Shown in pieces: positions 3,025 through 64,000 of a stretch of 64,000 nt of DNA; within the stretch, counting starts at the first letter, position 1; every line of letters begins with the position of its first letter. The stretch is from positions 352,001 through 416,000 of the forward strand of contig CM000432.1 in the NCBI GenBank assembly GCA_000165345.1, in the 5' to 3' direction. The notes beneath the pieces were generated by a model, which was given only the letters and a program-made list of their open reading frames with translations, did not search any database and was not told the origin of the DNA. The translations under genes and the position numbers were made by a program.

Positions 3025-3707
3025 GATCCTTTTCAAACTAGTTTTTGTTCATAATTCACTCTGATAGTAGTAATTATTAGTATTATTATTAAAATGTAAT
3101 TGTCTGTCAGTTCTCGTATATTAAATTGTTACAAACAATAACACAAGTAATAAGACTGATAGTATTTGTACTTAATTGCAATGATGACTCTAATATAATA
3201 TAAATAAATTTAATTAATTAATTTCTTTAAATTCTCTTTAAATACGACGAGTGCAATTTTAAAGATACGTATATTAATCTTTTAAGTTCCTTTTTATCCT
3301 CTCCAAAGAGTAATTTTTGCAAAAAAAAGCAAAGAAATTAAAAAATGTAAAAAGAGCTAATTTTTTTCGTTTTAAAGGAAAGGATTTGTTTTAATGATAA
3401 CAAGTTTTTGAGAAAGAAAATTCTAAAGAATAGAAGCTAAATCTAATTTATAACAATCCACATTAAAATTAATTAATTAAAAACCCCATCTTTTATTTAA
3501 AACTAACCCTAATCTATATAAATTAGACAATTAAGTAGCTTTACCTTTATTTCTATTACTATTTATTTTTTTTAATATTTATTTCCCCACAACTTAATTG
3601 TCCATTAAATTCAAATTGCAGTACCGGCATTCCCGCCATTTCCCGCCAAGTCAAATAATATTATAAGAGACGAGTATTTCAAGGCAAAAAAAAATTATTA
3701 AAAAAAA

Positions 3708-11224: not shown

Positions 11225-12147
11225 ATTACAACTTGTAATGTACTTGTTACTTTGTTTACAAACAAGACACTATTTCAGGAAACTATTGAAAGATAGATAA
11301 ATGAGAAAACACTACACAACTATTTTACTATTATTATTATTACCATTTTTCTTTTTTTTCCAAGTATTAAATACCCAAACTGAAATTATTCATTATTAAT
11401 TCATTCCACACGTTGGCGCCTAAACTATTTTTCACTGCATCACTGCAATACCGGTAATGTGGGGGGGTACGCGCCAGATATTTAAACATTTTATTTTTTA
11501 ATTCAAAAGAAATTATAAATATCTTAAAACAAAAGAAAAAAAGAATCTCACAAATTAATGATTTCAATTCAATTATATTTTTCTTCTTACTCATTCTTTT
11601 CTCACTGAAACAATATTCTACCCTTCCCAGTTTTTTTCTCTTTCAATAACCCTATCTCTAAAATTCATACTCAGTCGCCACCGTCTCGTCTCCACGGTCA
11701 TCGCTCGACAATGTATAGTGGTTGCAGCGTAAGGCAATACGTAACAACATGAAATGAAATCGTAATCTCGATCTTTGCAACGATATAGTTAGAAAGAAAA
11801 AGAGTTAAATAAGTGATGGGGAATAATAAAAAAGTTGAGAAATAGTATTTTGTATTTAATATTTAATAATAATTAATTAATATTAATAATAATAGTAAAT
11901 TAACTGATAACTTAAACTTTAAAGTTTTTATTCTTGAATAACACACTGGATTAAAGCATATTTTAAACAATTTGAAAACATAGATTTTTAAAAATAGGGC
12001 TTTTTTTTTTTAAAGAGTTATTAATGAAATAAAAGTGAAATATTGGAAAAATTACATTAATATTACAATATAATCATTATAATTCAAATTAAAATTAATT
12101 TAATTATAGGAATTAAATAATACTATGTTTAATGATAAAATCTAATA

Positions 12148-19255: not shown

Positions 19256-19758
19256 TAATAACTTAAATCTCTTTTTTTTTAATTCGAGGAAAAAAAAGAG
19301 TTCCAAATTATTATTAAATTACTGAAATTTTATACAATTGAATTCTTTTGAATTTACATATTTTTTAATAATAAAGATATATGAAGAAGAACATACATTA
19401 ATAATATTTAGTATATAACCAAACTAGTGTGTAATCTTTTTTCTTTTTTTTTCAATTTTGATAATCTTCTCTAATTTGTTTTTATATTTAATTTGCATGC
19501 GCTTGTCCACATTGAAATAAAATGTCAACTGCAAGCATTGCCGGTATCAACTTCAATAAATGCAAGTATTTTTTTAGGAAAAAATATAACAAAGGCGCCA
19601 AATAAATAATAAAATGACGTGGCGAGCGCCAAGCAAGGTTTGCAGTTTTATTTTGACATTGAGAAAAAAGATTAAAAAAGAAAAAGAAAGAACAAGGAAA
19701 AAAAATAAGAAGTAACCTTTAAATGAAAAAATAGGTCAAGCTTCAATTTCTCATCAAA

Positions 19759-22700
19759 ATGGAGGAAATAGATAGGAAAAAGTCTCACAAAACTCACCTA
19801 TCTAAAAGAAAGGTATTAAAGAAGAAATTAAAAAAGGAAGGAGCGGATAAGAAAGAGAGACATAATCCAAAGGTAAGTTTAATCATATTTATACTTTTTA
19901 AGATAGAATTTAACTCTGAGCTTTATCTCAATTACACTCTAGGCTTTCACATTTTCTGGAGGAGTTAAAAGTGTACAAAGAAGGGTACAAAGAACCCTTG
20001 ATATAACATCAAAAAGAGAAAAAGCACCAGGAATTGATAAAAGTAATGTAGAAGATGAGTCTACACCTCCATATATTGTTGCAGTTCAAGGTCCTCCTGG
20101 AGTAGGAAAAACAACTTTAATACGTTCTTTGGTGAAAAATTATACAAAATATAATTTGAATGTAATTGATGGAACTGTTACACTTGTATCATCGAAAAAT
20201 CGTCGTTTAACATTTATTGAATGCCCAAATGATATGCATGGTATGATAGATGTTGCAAAAGTTGCAGACCTCGTATTACTATTAATAGATGCAAGCTTTT
20301 CATTTGAAATGGAAACTTTTGAATTCTTAAATATATTACAAGTACATGGCTTTCCAAGAGTTCTTGGTGTTTTAACCCATTTGGATAAAATTGAAGATAA
20401 TAAGACTGTAAGGAAGACAAAAAAGAAGCTTAAAAATAGATTTTGGACTGAAATCTATAATGGAGCTAAATTATTCTATCTAAGCGGAATTCATAATGGT
20501 TTCTATAATAAAACTGAAATACGTAATTTATCCAGATTTATTGCAGTTCAAAAGTTTGAAAATCTATCATGGAGAAGTTCACATCCATATATAGTTTCTT
20601 TAAGAATTGAAGAAATTAATGATGATGATTATCATCAAAACAATAAGCAATCTTCTGAATCTAAAAATCCTGAAACAAGTGTCTACTTTTATGGATTTGT
20701 TAAGGGTGGAATAATGAGAAAAAACCAAAGTGTTCATATTCCAGGTCTTGGAGATTATTTGATTAATGATATTGATGAGTTTAATGATCCATGTCCTTTA
20801 CCAGAAACTAGTATAAAAAAGAATGGAACTAATGCAGGATTAAGAGTATTAAAGACTAAAGAAAGAAATATTTATGCTCCATATTGTGATGTGGGAAACG
20901 TTCAGATTGATTCTAACTCTATGTATATTCATATTCCAGACAATACTGTTAATTTTACCAGAAGAAAGGTTCTTTTTAACGATGATAACTCAGATTCAGA
21001 TTCAGATGTAGAAAACAATTCTCATAGTGAGGGAGAAGAGAATCTAGATGATGATATTCAAGATATTGATGAGTCCTTTGAAGAAGAAGAAGAAGATGAT
21101 GATAACTATTATCACAACGACATTAATCCAAAGAGTAATTCTTCACATTCAAGCTCAGAATCTAACTCTGAGGATGAAGAATATCTCCCAGAAGCTGTAA
21201 AATATGTTAGAAAACTACAAAAGTCTCAATCTGTTTTAAACAAAAGGGTTAATAATCTATCACTGAAACTACTTCCATCTTCAGAAGTTAGCCTAGAGAA
21301 CTCTATACTTTATGAAGAAAGTTCTGAAGCTGGTAAAAATAAAGGCTTTAGTAATGATGATGATCTTATGGAAACAGAGTATAAAGAAACTAATAACCAA
21401 AGTTATTACTCTGAAATTAAAAGTAAAAATAGTGATAACTTCCTATTCAGTAAAAATGTTAATTATTCATTAAAGGACTTGGTATACGGACGAAATGCTA
21501 AGGCTAGACAAGTATTTAAAAAGATGGTTTCTCAAAATAATGATAAAAGTATTAACTCTAAAAAAGCACTTTTCGATGATGATCTTGAAGATAGCCAAGA
21601 CGAGTTAAGTTCTGATACAGATGATATCGGTGAAATTCTTGATACTTTCAGAATAAATGATGTTTATATATATCCTACAAAACCTAAATCTATTCGAGAA
21701 TTAGTAAGTTACTGGACTGAAGAAAAGTACTATACTTTGAAACAAGAAAAATTCATCACGGGTGGAATAGATAATAGTGATGATGAAGAAGATCATCATA
21801 TTGATGGAGGATTAACAAACAAAGAAAATGAAGCTTCTGGGAATACTGAAGATATTAATGATTCTATCAATGATCAGAATAACGATTCATATTCTAATCA
21901 AGATAATTCAATGATGGATCTTGAAAGTAAAATTTTTAAAATAGGAAGGTATGTTCGTATAAGAATTGATAATATTGACAAAGAGTGGATCCGAAATCGT
22001 CAAGGGATTACTATTCTAGGAACTTTATTACCAGGAGAATCAGTTTTTGGTAATATTAATATTCGAATAAAAAAACATCGTTGGTATCCAAAAATACTAA
22101 AATCTGATGATGTATTAACATTTAGTATTGGTTGGAGAAGATTCCAGTCTATACCACTATATTCAATTGAGGATAGAAACGAAACAAGATATAGAATGCT
22201 TAAGTATACTCCTGAACACATGCATTGTTACTGTACAACTTATGGTCCTATCATACCATGTAACTTTGGTATATTGGCTATTAGAAGTTCAGAAAGAACA
22301 AGTAATTTTAGAATTGCTGCAACAGGAGTATCAGTGGAAATGCAAGCAAAAAGTAATATTGTTAAGAAATTGAAGCTTGTTGGTGAACCTAAGAAGATAC
22401 ATAAGAATACAGCATTTATTCACAAAATGTTTAATAGCGATTTAGAAGTTTCAAAGTTTATTGGAGCTAAAATTCAAACGGTTAGTGGAATTAGAGGACA
22501 AGTTAAAAAAGCTATTAGTACTCATGGACTTTTTAGAGCAACTTTTGAAGATAAAATACTTTTATCAGATATTGTATTTTGTAAAACATGGGTTTCTATG
22601 ACTCCAAGAGAATTCTATAATCCAGTAATAGATTTACCAACATGGAGAAGAATGAGAACTCAAGCTGAATTAAGAAGAGAATTAAATATTCCTTTAGCAA

Positions 22701-30531: not shown

Positions 30532-32061
30532 TTAAAGACCAAAAATACGAGTAAAATTTTTAGGTTTTCGACAATTACCAGAATACATATTTGCATGTAA
30601 ATTAATATTATCATCATATATAGATACACCATAGACAACTTGATCAGATATTTGACAATTATTTCCAGAAGAAGGAGTTTGATAAGCACTATTTAGTGTT
30701 TTAGAATAGTAATTATGTGAATGAGAATTGTTTGAAGTATTTGGATGGTATGTATTCGAATGAGTAAATTTTGACTTGGAAGAAATTGAAGAATTAGAAA
30801 TAATATTATTTTCTTCTATTTTCATTCTAGAAGATTGATTATTAAAGTACTTATTGGATGATTTTGTTGTATTGTGATAATTTAAATGATTATTTGTATG
30901 GTTTTTTGGGATAGGATATGATTTTTCTCTATAATAACAACTATCTTTATTGTTATTAGTATTATACTCATGACTTGTAGATTCATATTCTTGATAATTA
31001 TCGTAAATATTATCATCATCATCATCATTATCGTCATCATCATCTAATTCATGATATAAGTTTTCAAATCCTTGACTAGACAATGTAGATATTCTAGATA
31101 TTGATAAAGTGTGATCATGAGTCATATAAGAAGATTTAGATGATTGAATTTTAGGCTTTGGAGATAAATAAAGAATAAATTGTCTAACTTTTGAAATAAG
31201 TTCATCTCTCCAATTAAGTTCAATATTACAATGGTTAGCACCATTTACATACCATGGAGTGTATTTATTAGGAGAAAGCTTATAAAGCATTTCACCATGG
31301 TTAAATGGAATAACAGTATCAGCAGTACCATGAATAACAAATACTGGACATTTAACTTTTTGTATTTTTTCTAAGTTCTTAAATGCATCATACCATGGTA
31401 ATGATTTACTATTAGTATTATTACATATAACAGAGACTGCACTTTTAATACCAGAATGAATAATAATTCCTGCGATATTAATAGAATTATAAGTTGAAGC
31501 AAAATGTATAGTTGGTGCTGATCCAATTGATTGACCATATAAAATTAAGCTAGAAGAAGGTAACTTTAAATGATTAATAGAATAATGAACAATAGTTTTA
31601 ATATTTTCATATAAAGATTCTTCAGAAGTTTTTTTCTTGGATTGTCCATATCCATTGTATTCATAACTAATAATATTAACACAAGCTTTGTGAGAAAAAT
31701 CTAATAAATGACCAAATAAATAACCAATATCTGTGGCATTTGAATGAGAATATATTATAGTAAATTTTGCAGCAGGATTTTTATAATAAAAGAAATCAAT
31801 AGAATTAATAGAAGAAAATTTTACTTGAATTTGACATCTTCCTGGATCAATATTAATTAGATTCTTTTTCATTTCATTTAAAGTAACATATCTTTTTCTA
31901 TGAAAATCAAATAATACAATAGAATTACCACATTTCGAATATTTATAACCTTTAATAATTGGTGGATGAAATGACATACTATTAACTAATTGATTTTTTA
32001 TACCAGGTATTACAGAAATACATCCCAAACAAAATAACATTCCTTTCTTTTCTGATGGCAT
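30532..32061 (-). CDS. ABHD17-like alpha/beta hydrolase (putative protein depalmitoylase) with N/S/Y-rich C-terminal extension
   Basis: An N-terminal Cys cluster (FCLGCISVIPG) is followed by ...SYEYNGYGQS..., the nucleophile elbow GQSIGS and HGTADTVI. The protein is colinear with ABHD17/FAM108. Confidence 0.8.
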   Translation of the reverse strand: MPSEKKGMLFCLGCISVIPGIKNQLVNSMSFHPPIIKGYKYSKCGNSIVLFDFHRKRYVTLNEMKKNLINIDPGRCQIQVKFSSINSIDFFYYKNPAAKFTIIYSHSNATDIGYLFGHLLDFSHKACVNIISYEYNGYGQSKKKTSEESLYENIKTIVHYSINHLKLPSSSLILYGQSIGSAPTIHFASTYNSINIAGIIIHSGIKSAVSVICNNTNSKSLPWYDAFKNLEKIQKVKCPVFVIHGTADTVIPFNHGEMLYKLSPNKYTPWYVNGANHCNIELNWRDELISKVRQFILYLSPKPKIQSSKSSYMTHDHTLSISRISTLSSQGFENLYHELDDDDDNDDDDDNIYDNYQEYESTSHEYNTNNNKDSCYYREKSYPIPKNHTNNHLNYHNTTKSSNKYFNNQSSRMKIEENNIISNSSISSKSKFTHSNTYHPNTSNNSHSHNYYSKTLNSAYQTPSSGNNCQISDQVVYGVSIYDDNINLHANMYSGNCRKPKNFTRIFGL

Positions 32062-32374
32062 TTTTATTTTGATTAATTAAAGTTTCAATTATACTTATAA
32101 GCTTTACAAAAATACTCGAAATAAATTTTATATTTACTTTGCTTTAATTTTAAAATTACTTAAATATATATATATGTATATATTAATATTTTTTTCTTTA
32201 AAAGTTTCTTGAATTAAAATAAATTAAAAATAACTTAAAATTAAAAATTTAAAAAGAAAAGTCAAGATTAAAAACTTTTTTTTGTAAAAATTTGCTTTTT
32301 TCTTTATTTTTCAATTCCACATTTATTATTGCTCTTCTTCTCTCTTTTAAAGACCCCAGTCTAATAGTGACATT

Positions 32375-32474
32375 NNNNNNNNNNNNNNNNNNNNNNNNNN
32401 NNNNNNNNNNNNNNNNNNNNNNNNNNNNNNNNNNNNNNNNNNNNNNNNNNNNNNNNNNNNNNNNNNNNNNNNNN
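32375..32474. other. Assembly gap (100 N)
   Basis: Run of n characters. The track ORFs 32292-32564 and 32347-32535 are artefacts spanning it. Confidence 0.99.
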
Positions 32475-53100: not shown

Positions 53101-53137
53101 TGACGTCAGTTTTTTACCCGCCACACGTGTGGCGGGT
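53101..53137. promoter_or_regulatory. CRE palindrome TGACGTCA plus a 22-bp perfect palindrome ACCCGCCACACGTGTGGCGGGT (CACGTG core)
   Basis: Two perfect palindromes within 37 bp, about 460 bp upstream of the 53598 gene. Confidence 0.5.
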
Positions 53138-53597
53138 CATAAGTAACAGATTGAATTGAAAATACATGTATAATGTGGGGAAAAAATAAGAAAGAAAAAT
53201 AACATATTTTGTAATAAGGAAAAGAAAGAAAAAATAAGGTAATAAGGGAATATAATTGCGAAGATAAATGTGTATTAATAGATGATAAGTTTGTTATTTG
53301 CAGAGATTAAATAATAAAGAGAAAATAATTTGAGCAGTAATTTAGTGAAGATTAATTGAAAGGACTGAAGATAAATAAGGTTTATTAACCTTTTATTTTT
53401 CTTCCCTTATTCTCTTTCATCTTACGAAATAAAGGTGACAATTTTTTTTTTGATTAATAAAGTGGAATAAAGTATATTAAACGTGAAAACGTATTAAGTA
53501 AAAAATAAGGGATTAAACGACTAATATATAATCAGAAACTTCCAATAATTAAACAAAAAACAGAAAATTAAAAAATTTTTAATAAATAATTAATGAA

Positions 53598-59409: not shown

Positions 59410-60629
59410 ATTTATGACTTAGATTAAGTTAAGTTTAAATAAACTTTTATTCATAAAATTATTATTCAAATATTTATATTATTAGTGATAATTTTTTATT
59501 CTTAACTATTCTTTTGCTTAATTTATTTTACTGGAATTTCAGGTATTTTTTAAAAACCTTTGAATAATTATTCTGTTTCAGATTATATTTCATAATCAAT
59601 AAGAAAATATTCTTTTTTTACTATTTATATATATTGAATGATATCTTACCACTTTTATATGCCATATCATAATTTAATTAGTATAGGAAATTTTATATGC
59701 CAATAATACAGGAAAAAAAAAAATCAAGTAATTCCATAAAGTAGGTATTAAGGATCCTTTTGTATTTGAATTCAAAGAAAAGTTTCTTGGTTCATATCTT
59801 TAATATAGTCTGAAAATTATATAATAAACATTTATATTAAGTGTGCAATATTGACGCATAAATTTTAATTTAATATTATATATTAAATAAAATAAAAATA
59901 TATTGCTAATTTTATTTCAAATAATACTTCAAAATATTATTCCCATCTTATTCTATTAGCTTTAATTTGGTTGATTTGAGTTAATCAATTTCTTTTAATG
60001 AATCTTGCAAATTCTTCAAAAAGAACAATAATTCTGTTATAAATACAAATCTGTTGATGGAAATTAATTCATTTATTTATTTGAATGAATTAACATTAAA
60101 TTGTTAGTTTTAATTTATTAAATAAACTCAATTTTTATATTTTATTATAAAAATAAAATTGTATTGAAATAATTTTTTTTTTTTCATGCACAAAATTAAT
60201 ATTTTGGAAAATTACGTGTAAATAATTTTAATACCGGCACATCCACATGTAAAAATAATAAATAATACGAGCAAAAAAGAAAAAAAAGAGAAATTAGTAA
60301 AGATAAATTTAAATAAATATTTTGAAATAAACTAATTGAAAACGTTGAAACTTCCTATGTAGGATTTCCTTTTTATTTACTTAATAATCATAATTCTTTT
60401 TTTAAATAAAATACATCTTTTTTGATGGAAATCTGGCCATTACTTTCTTGTAGTATATGGTTAGTAATTAAGGCTTAATTTTGAATCATCATTGTTTCAT
60501 GAAAATAAGTATCATAGTTGTTTAAAAAAATTTATATCAAGTATAAATAGAGAAATCATTTAAAAAATTTTAACTATAAAAATTATAGGTTACAGAATAA
60601 GTAAATGAAGATGATAGTAATATCTGCAA

Positions 60630-61832: not shown

Positions 61833-63289
61833 TATCCTTCTATTACTCCTTTTTCTTTATTTCTTGATTCCAAAACAGCTAATTAGCGATATTTTTAATT
61901 GAGAAAACTAAATTACTTTATTGTACTCTTCTTTCGTAAAGATTAGTCCTTAAAAAAGTTGTAATTATTTTTTTTTCAATTAATAATAACTTTATAATAT
62001 TTTCAAACTTATTATTTTACTGAATTTTCTATGTTAAATTTACTAATAAATTAACTTATTATTTATTTTTGCTCGAAATTATTTAGAGATGTTTTTTCTT
62101 TTAATTTATTTTTATATATTAACTATTAATAATATATTTACTTAAGTTAAATTTTTCTATTTTATTGAAATATTCTGATAATGCAACTTTATAATTTAAT
62201 ATTTATAATTTAATTTCTCTATATATTATTGTTTGACTGCCCCCACTTTCTTCGTTTTTCTTCAATCACACACTAAATCAATTATTATTTACTTTTAATA
62301 TTACTATTTACATTCACTTCAATTAGATGTACGTATTTTATTTGCGCATTTTTTTCACTTTTCAGAAGTTGATTATATATATTTATATATAGATTACTTA
62401 ATAGACGTATTAATTTTAAAGATTATTTTAATCGCTCGAAATTGCATTTCAAAAAATCATTTTTTATATTGGAAATAACACTCAATTACTTATTGCAAAA
62501 ATGCAATTGGCGCCTATTTTGAAATGAAAACCAACGAAATTGTTGTATATTGAGAGTAATTTCAGTCAAATGATTGATGGCAAAATTGTAATTAGTTACT
62601 AAAATAAAGAGTGATTTAGCAGGAAGAAAACAAATACAAGTTTTAAGCGAACAAGATAATATGTGAAGTGGTGAATATATTTGCTATGTAACTTTGTATT
62701 CAGTTTGAAAGAAAAATAAACAATACTAAATTCAGAGTTCCACTCTTTCTCCATTATATTAACAATAATATTTGTTAGTAGTCAGTAGACCGTCGTGATT
62801 GAGTAGAACATAAATCATCACAATAAAGTATTGTTTTTTTTTTTTTTTTAAATAATCATCAAATTATGTTTATATATTTATTATAGCATTTTTTTTCAAT
62901 TGAATTAAATTAGGTTTTATTAATAAGTACATATATGAATATATTGCAAATAGAAAATGTCATATTCTTTAAAAAGTTGATATAATCGATTTTTTATAAA
63001 ATTAGCTTTAATATAAGGCTCATAGTATATAATTTATAATTCTCTCTTCTGAATAGTCCTAAAATTATATTCAATAGATAAATTTCTTCATTCTGAAAAA
63101 TGGATTTTTTAATATATTTATAATATATTAAAAATAATAAAAGTGATTTACGAAAAATAAACAAATAATATTGATTTTAAATATTTAAACACTTTGTTAA
63201 TATTATTGTTAATAAACAATCCTTAAATGACTATACTAGAATAAAATAAATTAATGTCTCACGCGCCTAAATTATTTATTTTAATTTAT

Positions 63290-63318
63290 GTCATGCATGA
63301 CTTTAACAATGTGGACAA
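63290..63318. promoter_or_regulatory. GTCATGCATGAC palindrome plus CAATGTGGACAA (reverse complement of TTGTCCACATTG at 19503-19514)
   Basis: The same 12-mer and a GCATGC core co-occur upstream of BMS1 (19495-19514). Confidence 0.5.
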
Positions 63319-63489: not shown

Positions 63490-64000
63490 ATGAACGAAAT
63501 TTATAAATGGTTGATACTAAAAAGGTTATTTGGAGAAAAAAAGAAGAGTTTAAATGATAATTCCAAAAACTTAGAAAAAACAATGAATAAGAGTGGCTAT
63601 TGCAGTGAAATTGCGAAGAATGATTATAAAAAGATGGAAGTTGAAATATTAGGTGAACCAAGAATAAGAAGAACATGCTTATCACCCAGGTCTACACCAA
63701 TTGTATTGGAAATTAACTTTTGCCCCAAATTACTTAGTGAGGAAAAAAGTTTATCAAAATCATTGAAAGTAGAATGGGGAGCAACTCATGATGAAATAGT
63801 TACAAAAAAATGTTTTTATTTTAATAATAAACAAGAGGAAAATAATTGTGAAAATTTACAAAACTATGAGAATGAATTAAGTGTGGCATATTTGGGAAGA
63901 CAAAATAAAAGAGTTTATTTGGAGAAAAATGAGTCAATCGAGATGAAAATATTAGCTAGAAATGACGATTTTGATTCAACAAAAGTTAATTTATCTAAAA
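63490..64000 (+). CDS. Hypothetical protein, 5' partial gene running off the right edge
   Basis: The ATG at 63490 opens a frame with no stop up to 64000 (MNEIYKWLILKRLFGEKKKSLND...). It is absent from the track because it has no in-window stop. Confidence 0.5.
   Translation, partial: MNEIYKWLILKRLFGEKKKSLNDNSKNLEKTMNKSGYCSEIAKNDYKKMEVEILGEPRIRRTCLSPRSTPIVLEINFCPKLLSEEKSLSKSLKVEWGATHDEIVTKKCFYFNNKQEENNCENLQNYENELSVAYLGRQNKRVYLEKNESIEMKILARNDDFDSTKVNLSK

What the first reader, a model, noticed from the sequence alone, without database searches (positions are those of the whole stretch)
19495..19514. Exact 12-mer TTGTCCACATTG paired with a GCATGC core in two unrelated promoters
GCATGCgcTTGTCCACATTG sits upstream of BMS1. 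Its reverse complement arrangement, GTCATGCATGACtttaaCAATGTGGACAA, sits at 63290-63318 upstream of the right-edge gene. A GTCCACA core also appears at 44898-44909 (GGTGTCCACAAG) and 60240-60250 (CATCCACATG). A 12-nt exact repeat in two promoters of a 64-kb window is unexpected. GCATGC is a known apicomplexan AP2-type target, so the 12-mer may be its partner site.
Basis: seen in the sequence. Interest (0 to 1): 0.5.

Follow-up and report, generated by a model that had tools for sequence, protein, structure and literature searches.

The report
Conserved ATGTGGA promoter motif in Cryptosporidium
The repeated 12-mer is real, but what matters is a 7-base core (ATGTGGA) kept at the same promoter positions across several Cryptosporidium species, often beside the known TGCATG site, so it is probably an unassigned transcription-factor binding site and not a new kind of element.

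Summary
The window is Cryptosporidium parvum chromosome 4. TTGTCCACATTG occurs exactly twice, at 19503-19514 (+) and 63307-63318 (-). The first copy is 245 bp upstream of the BMS1 (cgd4_1480) ATG. The second ends 171 bp upstream of the ATG of the right-edge gene (inferred cgd4_1630).

One repeated GC-containing 12-mer in 22 kb of noncoding DNA is what chance predicts. Site 2 carries CATGCATG, not GCATGC, and the two arrangements are not mirror images.

Comparison with six other Cryptosporidium species shows a constrained core, ATGTGGA/TCCACAT, usually followed by (C)A. It is kept at site 1, site 2, 44901-44908 and 60240-60249, while the flanking bases drift. ATGTGG and TGTGGA are the hexamers most often conserved in the aligned intergenic DNA. 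ATGTGGA occurs 6 times in noncoding DNA against 1.4 expected, and is not enriched in coding DNA.

TGCATG is conserved next to the core at sites 1 and 2 and overlaps it at the 60240 site in three species. It is absent at 44901.

The core fits an orphan motif, A[T/A]G[T/A]GGA.A, reported once upstream of late oocyst-wall protein genes.

Verdict: a probable binding site for an unknown factor, a modest extension of known promoter vocabulary. Genome-wide tests could not be run.

The parts
19503..19514 (+). Site 1: the reported 12-mer TTGTCCACATTG. The constrained core is TCCACAT at 19506-19512, which reads ATGTGGA on the minus strand. It lies 245 bp upstream of the BMS1 ATG (19759).
   Evidence: TCCACAT is identical in C. 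parvum, meleagridis, chipmunk genotype I, ubiquitum and canis, and reads TCCGCAT in felis. The bases 5' of it vary (TG/TT/TA), as do those 3' (TTG/TTA/TGA). It is an invariant block in the four-species comparison.
19494..19501 (.). TGCATGCG, an AP2_1-type site that fits the published TGCATG(T/C)(G/A). It sits 6 nt from the TCCACAT core.
   Evidence: TTGCATG is invariant in the four-species comparison (parvum, meleagridis, chipmunk genotype I, canis). TGCATG is also kept in ubiquitum and lost in felis. The next two bases are CG/TG/TA/TA/CA, all matching YR. The motif is from Hasan 2024.
19541..19547 (-). CCGGTAT (ATACCGG on the minus strand), a conserved block in the BMS1 promoter.
   Evidence: All 5 ATACCGG copies in the window are noncoding, and one is adjacent to the 60240 site.
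19594..19633 (.). E2F-type sites GGCGCC (19594-19599) and ACGTGGCGAGCGCCAAG (19617-19633) between site 1 and the BMS1 ATG. TTGACATT at 19653-19660 is also conserved.
   Evidence: The first GGCGCC is invariant in all six species. The second site is nearly invariant, with 1-2 substitutions in canis and felis.
63307..63318 (-). Site 2: the second copy of the 12-mer, CAATGTGGACAA on the plus strand. The core ATGTGGA is at 63309-63315 (+). The 12-mer ends 171 bp upstream of the ATG at 63490 of the right-edge 211-aa gene (inferred cgd4_1630).
   Evidence: AATGTGGACA is kept in meleagridis and chipmunk genotype I, and felis has ATTGTGGACAAAG at -174. The site is degenerate in canis (AAAGTGGGTAAAT) and ryanae (ACATGGACAAAA). 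Ryanae has a new CATGCAttttATGTGGA pair at -43.
63290..63301 (.). The palindrome GTCATGCATGAC, a TGCATG-type AP2_1 site 9 nt upstream of the ATGTGGA core.
   Evidence: ATGCATGACT at 63293-63302 is invariant in four species. TGCAT is kept in felis and TGCATGAC in ryanae.
63255..63270 (+). TGTCTCACGCGCCTAA, an E2F-like conserved block upstream of site 2.
   Evidence: Invariant in four species. Felis and ryanae have GTCTC(G/A)GGCGCCAC at the same place.
44901..44908 (-). Site 3: GTCCACAA, which reads TTGTGGAC on the minus strand. It sits in a dense conserved promoter cluster with a G-box, E2F-like sites and GGCGCC at 44915, 661 bp upstream of the CHD (cgd4_1590) ATG. It lies just upstream of a ~600-nt conserved noncoding stretch.
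   Evidence: Invariant in parvum, meleagridis, chipmunk genotype I, ubiquitum and canis, while the spacer to GGCGCC varies. There is no TGCATG in this intergenic region.
60240..60249 (-). Site 4: CATCCACATG, which contains ATGTGGA on the minus strand. It lies between the end of the GLUCM-like gene and the start of the kinase gene (inferred cgd4_1610).
   Evidence: It is one of only two invariant blocks of at least 7 nt in this 1.2-kb intergenic region. It is kept in parvum, meleagridis, chipmunk genotype I, canis and felis. In chipmunk genotype I, canis and felis it reads TCCACATGCAA, which is TGCATG overlapping ATGTGGA.
39282..39291 (-). TCCACATGCA (TGCATGTGGA on the minus strand), 23 nt after the SART-1 stop codon and just upstream of a conserved E2F-type promoter. 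Probably not constrained.
   Evidence: The ATGTGGA part is not kept in ubiquitum or canis.
3457..3463 (-). A further noncoding ATGTGGA copy in a divergent intergenic region. Conservation was not testable.
   Evidence: No orthologous locus was fetched.
32316..32322 (-). A further noncoding ATGTGGA copy, 53 nt left of the assembly gap. Conservation was not testable.

Best explanation
The two 12-mers are two instances of a short cis-regulatory element with core 5'-ATGTGGA-3', usually (A/T)TGTGGA(C)A. It is most likely the binding site of a sequence-specific DNA-binding protein that has not been assigned. It sits in upstream promoter modules of Cryptosporidium genes together with E2F/DP sites (GGCGCC type) and, at most copies, a TGCAT(G) ApiAP2 site. 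It works in either orientation.

Shown here: the sequences, the noncoding bias, positional conservation across species beyond that of the flanks, and co-conservation with TGCATG at sites 1 and 2.

Inferred: that a protein binds the site, that binding affects transcription, and that it cooperates with a TGCAT-binding ApiAP2.
For: (1) Conservation. TCCACAT at site 1 is identical in 5 species while its neighbours drift. TTGTGGAC at 44901 is identical in 5 species. CATCCACATG at 60240 is identical in 5 species and is one of only two conserved blocks in its intergenic region. Site 2 is kept in 4 of 6 species, and ryanae carries a replacement TGCATG+ATGTGGA pair elsewhere in the same promoter. Only 2.8% of noncoding 7-mer windows are invariant in the parvum-meleagridis-chipmunk genotype I-canis comparison. 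Three of 4 testable sites being invariant gives P about 1e-4, or 3 of 5 gives about 3e-4 when the unconserved 39282 copy is counted.

(2) Ranking of all hexamers. When all hexamers are ranked by independently conserved occurrences in 6.6 kb of aligned intergenic DNA, ATGTGG and TGTGGA come first (3 of 5 each). They rank ahead of GGCGCC, GTGGGG and TGCATG.

(3) Noncoding bias. ATGTGGA occurs 6 times in noncoding DNA against 1.38 expected (P = 0.003), and 4 times in coding DNA against 5.8 expected. TGTGGAC is 3 of 3 noncoding against 0.32 expected. The known motifs TGCATG, GGCGCC and GTGGGG show the same signature.

(4) Promoter context. Four of the 7 noncoding copies lie between divergently transcribed genes, where there is no 3' end.

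(5) Literature. An orphan motif A[T/A]G[T/A]GGA.A was reported upstream of Class II COWP genes together with AP2_1-like and E2F motifs (PMC3734150). ATGTGGACA, ATGTGGAAA (ubiquitum) and ATGTGGATA (canis) all fit it.
Against: The sample is only 64 kb plus orthologous loci, and no genome-wide count was possible. The motif was defined from two of the counted sites. Without them the noncoding excess is 4 observed against 1.4 expected, which is roughly borderline by my estimate and was not recomputed.

One copy (39282) is not conserved, and site 2 is degenerate in canis. ATGTGGA is not enriched in the whole window (10 against 6.9). The degenerate published consensus is not enriched either (17 against 13.6), so the link to the COWP motif rests on a sequence match alone.

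No binding protein is known. None of the 15 C. parvum AP2 domains with a published motif is reported to bind this sequence, and the motif is absent from the 25 genome-wide motifs and from the 2025 review table. ATAC-seq motif analysis in sporozoites reported only E2F and poly-T motifs.
Confidence: 0.6

Rival explanations
1. Obligate composite element: ATGTGGA and TGCATG form one bipartite site. It would be read by a multi-domain ApiAP2 or by two cooperating factors.
For: TGCATG is co-conserved 6 nt from the core at site 1 in 4 species (7 nt in canis) and 9 nt from it at site 2. It overlaps the core as TGCATGTGGA at the 60240 site in chipmunk genotype I, canis and felis, and at 39282 in parvum. 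Ryanae evolved a new CATGCA-N4-ATGTGGA pair in the cgd4_1630 promoter. Three of 7 sites are within 10 bp of TGCATG against a 1.9% background. TGCATG(T/C)(G/A) is the published macrogamont promoter motif. AP2 domain cgd1_3520 binds both TGCAT and a G-rich box.
Against: The fully conserved site at 44901 has no TGCATG in 2 kb. Parvum and meleagridis have lost the TGCATG at site 4 (TCCACATGT) but kept the core. Order, strand and spacing differ between sites. Without the discovery sites the association is 1 of 5 (P = 0.09).
Confidence: 0.25
2. It is a weak variant of the G-box-like motif (DTGTGGGG / G[T/C]GGGG), bound by the G-box ApiAP2s cgd8_810, cgd2_2990 or cgd1_3520.
For: It shares ATGTGG with the conserved ATGTGGGGAAAA at 53173 and with published Motif 2, DTGTGGGG. 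The canis version of site 2 is AAAGTGGGTAAAT. ATACCGG lies next to ATGTGGGGGGG at 11448 and next to TCCACAT at 60231.
Against: The defining GGGG run is absent. The A after GG is invariant in 5 species at sites 1, 3 and 4, and never drifts to G although that would improve a G-box.
Confidence: 0.12
3. Chance repeat: the two 12-mers have no shared function, and the conservation reflects generally slow-evolving promoter DNA or RNA-level elements (5' UTR or ncRNA).
For: About one repeated 12-mer of this composition is expected by chance in the noncoding DNA. Site 3 borders a 600-nt highly conserved noncoding stretch. Transcription start sites are not known here.
Against: The core is conserved more than its immediate flanks at four separate loci. 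It tops the ranking of all hexamers by conserved occurrences. It occurs in both orientations relative to the downstream gene, which argues against an RNA signal.
Confidence: 0.1

Closest known systems
Orphan 'unknown motif' 5'-A[T/A]G[T/A]GGA.A-3' upstream of Class II COWP genes (Oberstaller, Joseph & Kissinger 2013, PMC3734150)
   Same: ATGTGGACA fits the consensus exactly, and the species variants at site 1 (ATGTGGAAA, ATGTGGATA) vary at the one position the consensus leaves free. In that paper it also co-occurs with AP2_1-like (TGCAT) and E2F motifs.
   Different: It was reported for only 4-5 late, oocyst-wall genes found by MEME. Here it sits in promoters of BMS1, a CHD-type chromatin protein, a kinase and a small unknown gene, which fall in different expression clusters. 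The degenerate consensus as written is not enriched in this window. Sites 3 and felis site 2 begin with T, not A.
AP2_1 motif TGCATGCA / TGCATG(T/C)(G/A), bound by ApiAP2 domains cgd2_3490, cgd1_3520, cgd8_3230 and cgd5_4250
   Same: It is the conserved neighbour of the core at sites 1 and 2 and overlaps it at site 4 in three species. Site 1 fits TGCATGYR in all five species that keep it.
   Different: The 12-mer itself has no TGCAT. ATGTGGA shares only ATGTG with TGCATGTG and is conserved at a locus with no TGCATG.
[quoted passage not shown]
   Same: It shares (A/T)TGTGG, and both are noncoding-enriched and conserved in this window.
   Different: It has GGAC/GGAA/GGAT in place of GGGG, and the A is invariant across species.

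Membership tests
AP2_1 (TGCATGCA) ApiAP2 target site | Contains the TGCAT core, ideally palindromic TGCATGCA | tested here: not met
   The 12-mer TTGTCCACATTG has no TGCAT on either strand. The feature is met only by the neighbouring sequences TGCATGCG (19494-19501) and CATGCATG (63292-63299).
AP2_1 (TGCATGCA) ApiAP2 target site | Bound by a TGCAT-specific AP2 domain in binding-array or ChIP data | not testable with these tools
   Binding data exist only as published logos. No protein-DNA assay is available here.
G-box (G.GGGG / DTGTGGGG) | A run of four G after G-N | tested here: not met
   The core is GTGGAC, GTGGAA or GTGGAT in all species at sites 1, 3 and 4. Only the canis site 2 variant, GTGGGT, approaches it.
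E2F/DP site ([A/T][C/G]GCGC[G/C][A/T]) | A GCGC core | tested here: not met
   It is absent from the 12-mer. E2F-type sites are separate conserved blocks 7-100 bp away (19594, 19617-19633, 63255-63270, 44915).
Oberstaller 2013 Class II COWP 'unknown motif' A[T/A]G[T/A]GGA.A | Sequence fits the 9-nt consensus | tested here: met
   ATGTGGACA at 19504-19512 (-) and 63309-63317 (+) fits. The chance of a 12-mer fitting is about 4e-4.
Oberstaller 2013 Class II COWP 'unknown motif' A[T/A]G[T/A]GGA.A | Co-occurs with AP2_1-like and E2F motifs in the same upstream region | tested here: met
   Sites 1 and 2 have both, and site 3 has E2F only.
Oberstaller 2013 Class II COWP 'unknown motif' A[T/A]G[T/A]GGA.A | Over-represented upstream of late (48-72 h) oocyst-wall genes | not tested
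   No COWP locus could be fetched. The genes here belong to unrelated expression clusters 114, 66, 43 and 120.
Functional transcription-factor binding site (generic) | Positional conservation above that of the flanking noncoding DNA | tested here: met
   Three of 4 sites testable in the four-species comparison lie in invariant 7-mers, against a 2.8% background. The hexamers rank first by conserved occurrences.
Functional transcription-factor binding site (generic) | Genome-wide enrichment in promoters relative to coding DNA | tested here: inconclusive
   Within 64 kb there are 6 noncoding copies against 1.38 expected and 4 coding copies against 5.8 expected. Two of the six defined the motif, and the whole genome was not available.
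Functional transcription-factor binding site (generic) | Occupied by a protein, with mutation changing expression | not testable with these tools
   This needs EMSA, DAP-seq, ChIP or reporter assays.

The most novel reading that the evidence does not exclude
ATGTGGA is a widespread promoter element across the genus Cryptosporidium, read by a factor not yet linked to any motif (an ApiAP2 domain without an assigned site, or a C2H2 or Myb protein). It would act together with TGCAT-binding ApiAP2s and E2F/DP. It would have been missed by motif searches based on expression clusters because it is not tied to one expression profile.
Probability: 0.3. Interest if true: 0.5.

Novelty: new member of a known kind. 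Interest (0 to 1): 0.35.

Why it matters
Gene regulation in Cryptosporidium is poorly mapped. The 2025 review lists only six promoter motif families, and most upstream motifs have no assigned factor. A short element that stays fixed across species from C. parvum to C. felis, in promoters of unrelated genes, is a concrete handle with defined test sites. It could serve as a probe for pulling down its factor, and it could be used to test whether TGCAT-binding ApiAP2s act with partners. If genome-wide data did not bear it out, the finding would reduce to a coincidental 12-mer over ordinary conserved promoter DNA.

Tried and rejected
1. Segmental duplication or mobile-element remnant. Rejected, because the flanks of the two 12-mers share nothing beyond a TGCATG-type site.

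2. The 12-mer as the unit of function. Rejected, because its outer bases differ in chipmunk genotype I, ubiquitum, canis and felis.

3. A 3'-end or terminator signal. Rejected, because 4 of the 7 noncoding copies lie between divergent genes, and orientation relative to the upstream gene differs between copies.

4. An upstream ORF start (ATG-TGG-ACA-AAT-TAA at site 2). Rejected, because felis has TTG at that position, chipmunk genotype I has no equivalent stop codon, and site 1 is antisense to BMS1.

5. A dimer site TGT-NN-ACA. Rejected, because the ACA half is not conserved (TGTGGAAA in ubiquitum, TGTGGATA in canis, ATGTGGATG at site 4).

6. The Plasmodium AP2-FG/PFG ten-base motif TGTRNNYACA. 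I recalled this from memory and did not check it. Our word has two central bases, not four.

7. Rfam searches found only the two tRNA-Pro genes.

8. Full-text searches for TGTGGAC, GTCCACA, TGTGGA or TCCACA returned only primers and unrelated sequences. There was no mention in Campbell 2010, Mullapudi 2007, the 2014 ApiAP2 paper or the ATAC-seq preprint.

10. The copies at 3457 and 32316 could not be tested for conservation. The second lies beside an assembly gap where synteny with other species ends.

Full report
**Identity of the window**

Exact protein matches place the window on Cryptosporidium parvum chromosome 4. Expression-cluster tables give cgd4_1480 (BMS1), cgd4_1580 (Spb1), cgd4_1590 (CHD) and cgd4_1600. 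The IDs cgd4_1610 to cgd4_1640 used here are inferred from gene order up to cgd4_1650. The gene map came from ORFs and Pfam matches.

BMS1 starts at ATG 19759 (MEEIDRKK) and has a short intron after 19872. The intergenic region after the V-ATPase subunit a gene is therefore 19256-19758. The right-edge gene is a 211-aa protein with no Pfam match, starting at 63490.

**The observation**

The strings and coordinates are correct. Three details are not.

- Site 2 carries CATGCATG, not GCATGC.
- Relative to the 12-mer, the TGCATG lies on opposite sides at the two sites, so the arrangement is not a reverse complement.
- A repeated 12-mer is not surprising in itself. Shuffled noncoding DNA (22.2 kb, 21.7% GC) yields 0.9 +/- 0.95 repeated 12-mer events with at least 5 G/C.

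The real noncoding DNA has 14 such events. The other 13 are a tRNA-Pro pair, E2F-type GGCGCC sites, one G-box-like word next to a tRNA, and one short repeat flanking E2F-type sites that I did not classify. In this genome, repeated GC-containing noncoding words are therefore mostly functional. Even so, this particular one could be the single chance event that shuffling predicts.

**Comparison across species**

I fetched the orthologous loci from C. meleagridis, chipmunk genotype I, C. ubiquitum, C. canis, C. felis and C. ryanae.

- Site 1 (BMS1 promoter). TGCATG, then 6 nt, then T(G/T/A)TCCACAT is kept in parvum, meleagridis, chipmunk genotype I and ubiquitum. Canis has a 7-nt spacer. The spacer sequence and the outer bases of the 12-mer change. 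Felis has TGTCCGCAT and has lost the TGCATG.
- Site 2. The module GTCTC-N-GCGCC ... ATGCATGAC ... (A/T)TGTGGACA is kept in parvum, meleagridis, chipmunk genotype I and felis. Canis has AAAGTGGGTAAAT. Ryanae has ACATGGACAAAA at the old position, and a new CATGCAttttATGTGGA pair at -43 in the same promoter.
GTCCACAA at 44901-44908 is invariant in five species while the spacer to the adjacent GGCGCC varies. CATCCACATG at 60240-60249 is invariant in five species and is one of only two conserved blocks of at least 7 nt in a 1.2-kb intergenic region.
- A fifth copy, TCCACATGCA at 39282, is not conserved in ubiquitum or canis.

The constrained unit is therefore ATGTGGA, usually followed by (C)A, and not the 12-mer.

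**Statistics**

- In the parvum-meleagridis-chipmunk genotype I-canis alignments, 2.8% of noncoding 7-mer windows are invariant. Three of 4 testable sites being invariant gives P about 1e-4. Counting 39282 as a failure, 3 of 5 gives about 3e-4.
- I ranked all hexamers by independently conserved occurrences. ATGTGG and TGTGGA come first (3 of 5 each), ahead of GGCGCC, GTGGGG and TGCATG.
- In C. parvum noncoding DNA, ATGTGGA occurs 6 times against 1.38 expected (P = 0.003), and TGTGGAC 3 times against 0.32. In coding DNA both are at or below expectation. The known motifs show the same pattern.
- Caveats: two of the six copies defined the motif, and whole-window counts are unremarkable.

**The TGCATG partner**

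TGCATG is co-conserved with the core at sites 1 and 2. At site 4 in chipmunk genotype I, canis and felis, and at 39282 in parvum, the two overlap as TGCATGTGGA. Site 1 fits the published macrogamont promoter motif TGCATG(T/C)(G/A) in all five species that keep it.

Three of 7 sites are within 10 bp of TGCATG against a background of 1.9%. Excluding the two discovery sites this is 1 of 5 (P = 0.09). Site 3 has no TGCATG in 2 kb, and parvum and meleagridis lost the one at site 4 while keeping the core.

I read this as frequent but non-obligatory co-occurrence of two promoter elements, with no fixed geometry.

**Comparison with what is known**

- The 25 genome-wide C. parvum upstream motifs and the 2025 review table contain no ATGTGGA-type word.
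- The same 2013 paper mentions, for Class II COWP genes only, an unknown motif A[T/A]G[T/A]GGA.A found together with AP2_1-like, E2F and CCAAT-like motifs. ATGTGGACA fits it, and the site 1 variants differ at the position the consensus leaves free. The chance of such a fit is about 4e-4. However, the degenerate consensus is not enriched here, so the identification is plausible but unproven.
- The nearest defined families are the G-box-like DTGTGGGG, whose defining GGGG is not present, and AP2_1, whose TGCAT is absent from the 12-mer.
- No published AP2 binding-array motif matches.

**Mechanism**

The most likely mechanism is an orientation-independent binding site for an unassigned factor, in upstream promoter modules with E2F/DP and often a TGCAT-binding ApiAP2 (confidence about 0.6). 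Conservation, noncoding bias and co-occurrence are shown. Binding and regulatory effect are inferred.

The rivals are:
- an obligate bipartite site with TGCATG (0.25, a subcase of the main model);
- a weak G-box variant (0.12);
- coincidence plus generally conserved promoter or RNA sequence (0.1).

**Verdict**

The feature is real but ordinary in kind: further instances, with cross-species conservation, of a cis-element that has been described only in passing.

Noticed in passing
window 32375-32474: A run of 100 N (assembly gap). Synteny with C. ubiquitum and C. canis holds only to the right of it. To the left those species have ribosomal protein S17/S11 and a 114-aa gene, whereas the window has a 509-aa ORF at 30535-32061 (-). 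This suggests a scaffold join or missing sequence.
   Followed up: partly
window ~39700-40260, with a promoter at ~39305-39330: Between SART-1 and the end of Spb1, several blocks are nearly invariant in parvum, ubiquitum and canis and look like C boxes (TGATGA) and D boxes (CTGA). This is probably an unannotated box C/D snoRNA cluster. It lies downstream of a conserved ACGTGG..TTCCCGC E2F-type site and a conserved GGTAAGTT splice donor. Rfam gave no hit.
   Followed up: partly
window 44930-45562: About 600 nt upstream of the annotated CHD (cgd4_1590) ATG have no ORF but are highly conserved in five species, including the invariant GGAGAATGAGTAACCGGTTACCCA at 44974-44997. This could be a long 5' UTR or intron, or an unannotated ncRNA. 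Rfam gave no hit.
   Followed up: partly
window 62730-62828: About 100 nt are almost invariant in four species in the middle of the GLUCM-like/cgd4_1630 intergenic region (ATTCAGAGTTCCACTCTTTCTCCATTA ... AGTCAGTAGACCGTCGTGATTGAG ...). This may be a small ncRNA or a missed exon.
   Followed up: no
window 6952, 11448, 19541, 60231 (ATACCGG); 44983-44990 (AACCGGTT): ATACCGG occurs 5 times and never in coding DNA. It is conserved at 19541 and lies next to ATGTGG-type words at 11448 (ATACCGGTAATGTGGGGGGG) and 60231 (ATACCGGCACATCCACAT). It may be another unassigned promoter word.
   Followed up: partly
window 53101-53108 and 53173-53184: A perfect CRE-like palindrome TGACGTCA and a G-box ATGTGGGGAAAA are invariant in four species upstream of cgd4_1600, the Spc7-like kinetochore protein.
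   Followed up: no
window 35545-35617 (-) and 36166-36238 (+): A divergent pair of tRNA-Pro genes (AGG and TGG anticodons). They account for most of the repeated GC-rich 12-mers in the noncoding DNA.
   Followed up: yes
window 19873-19942: BMS1 has a short 5' intron, so the long ORF beginning at 20129 lacks the first ~109 residues. ORF-based maps misplace the start codon by 370 nt.
   Followed up: yes
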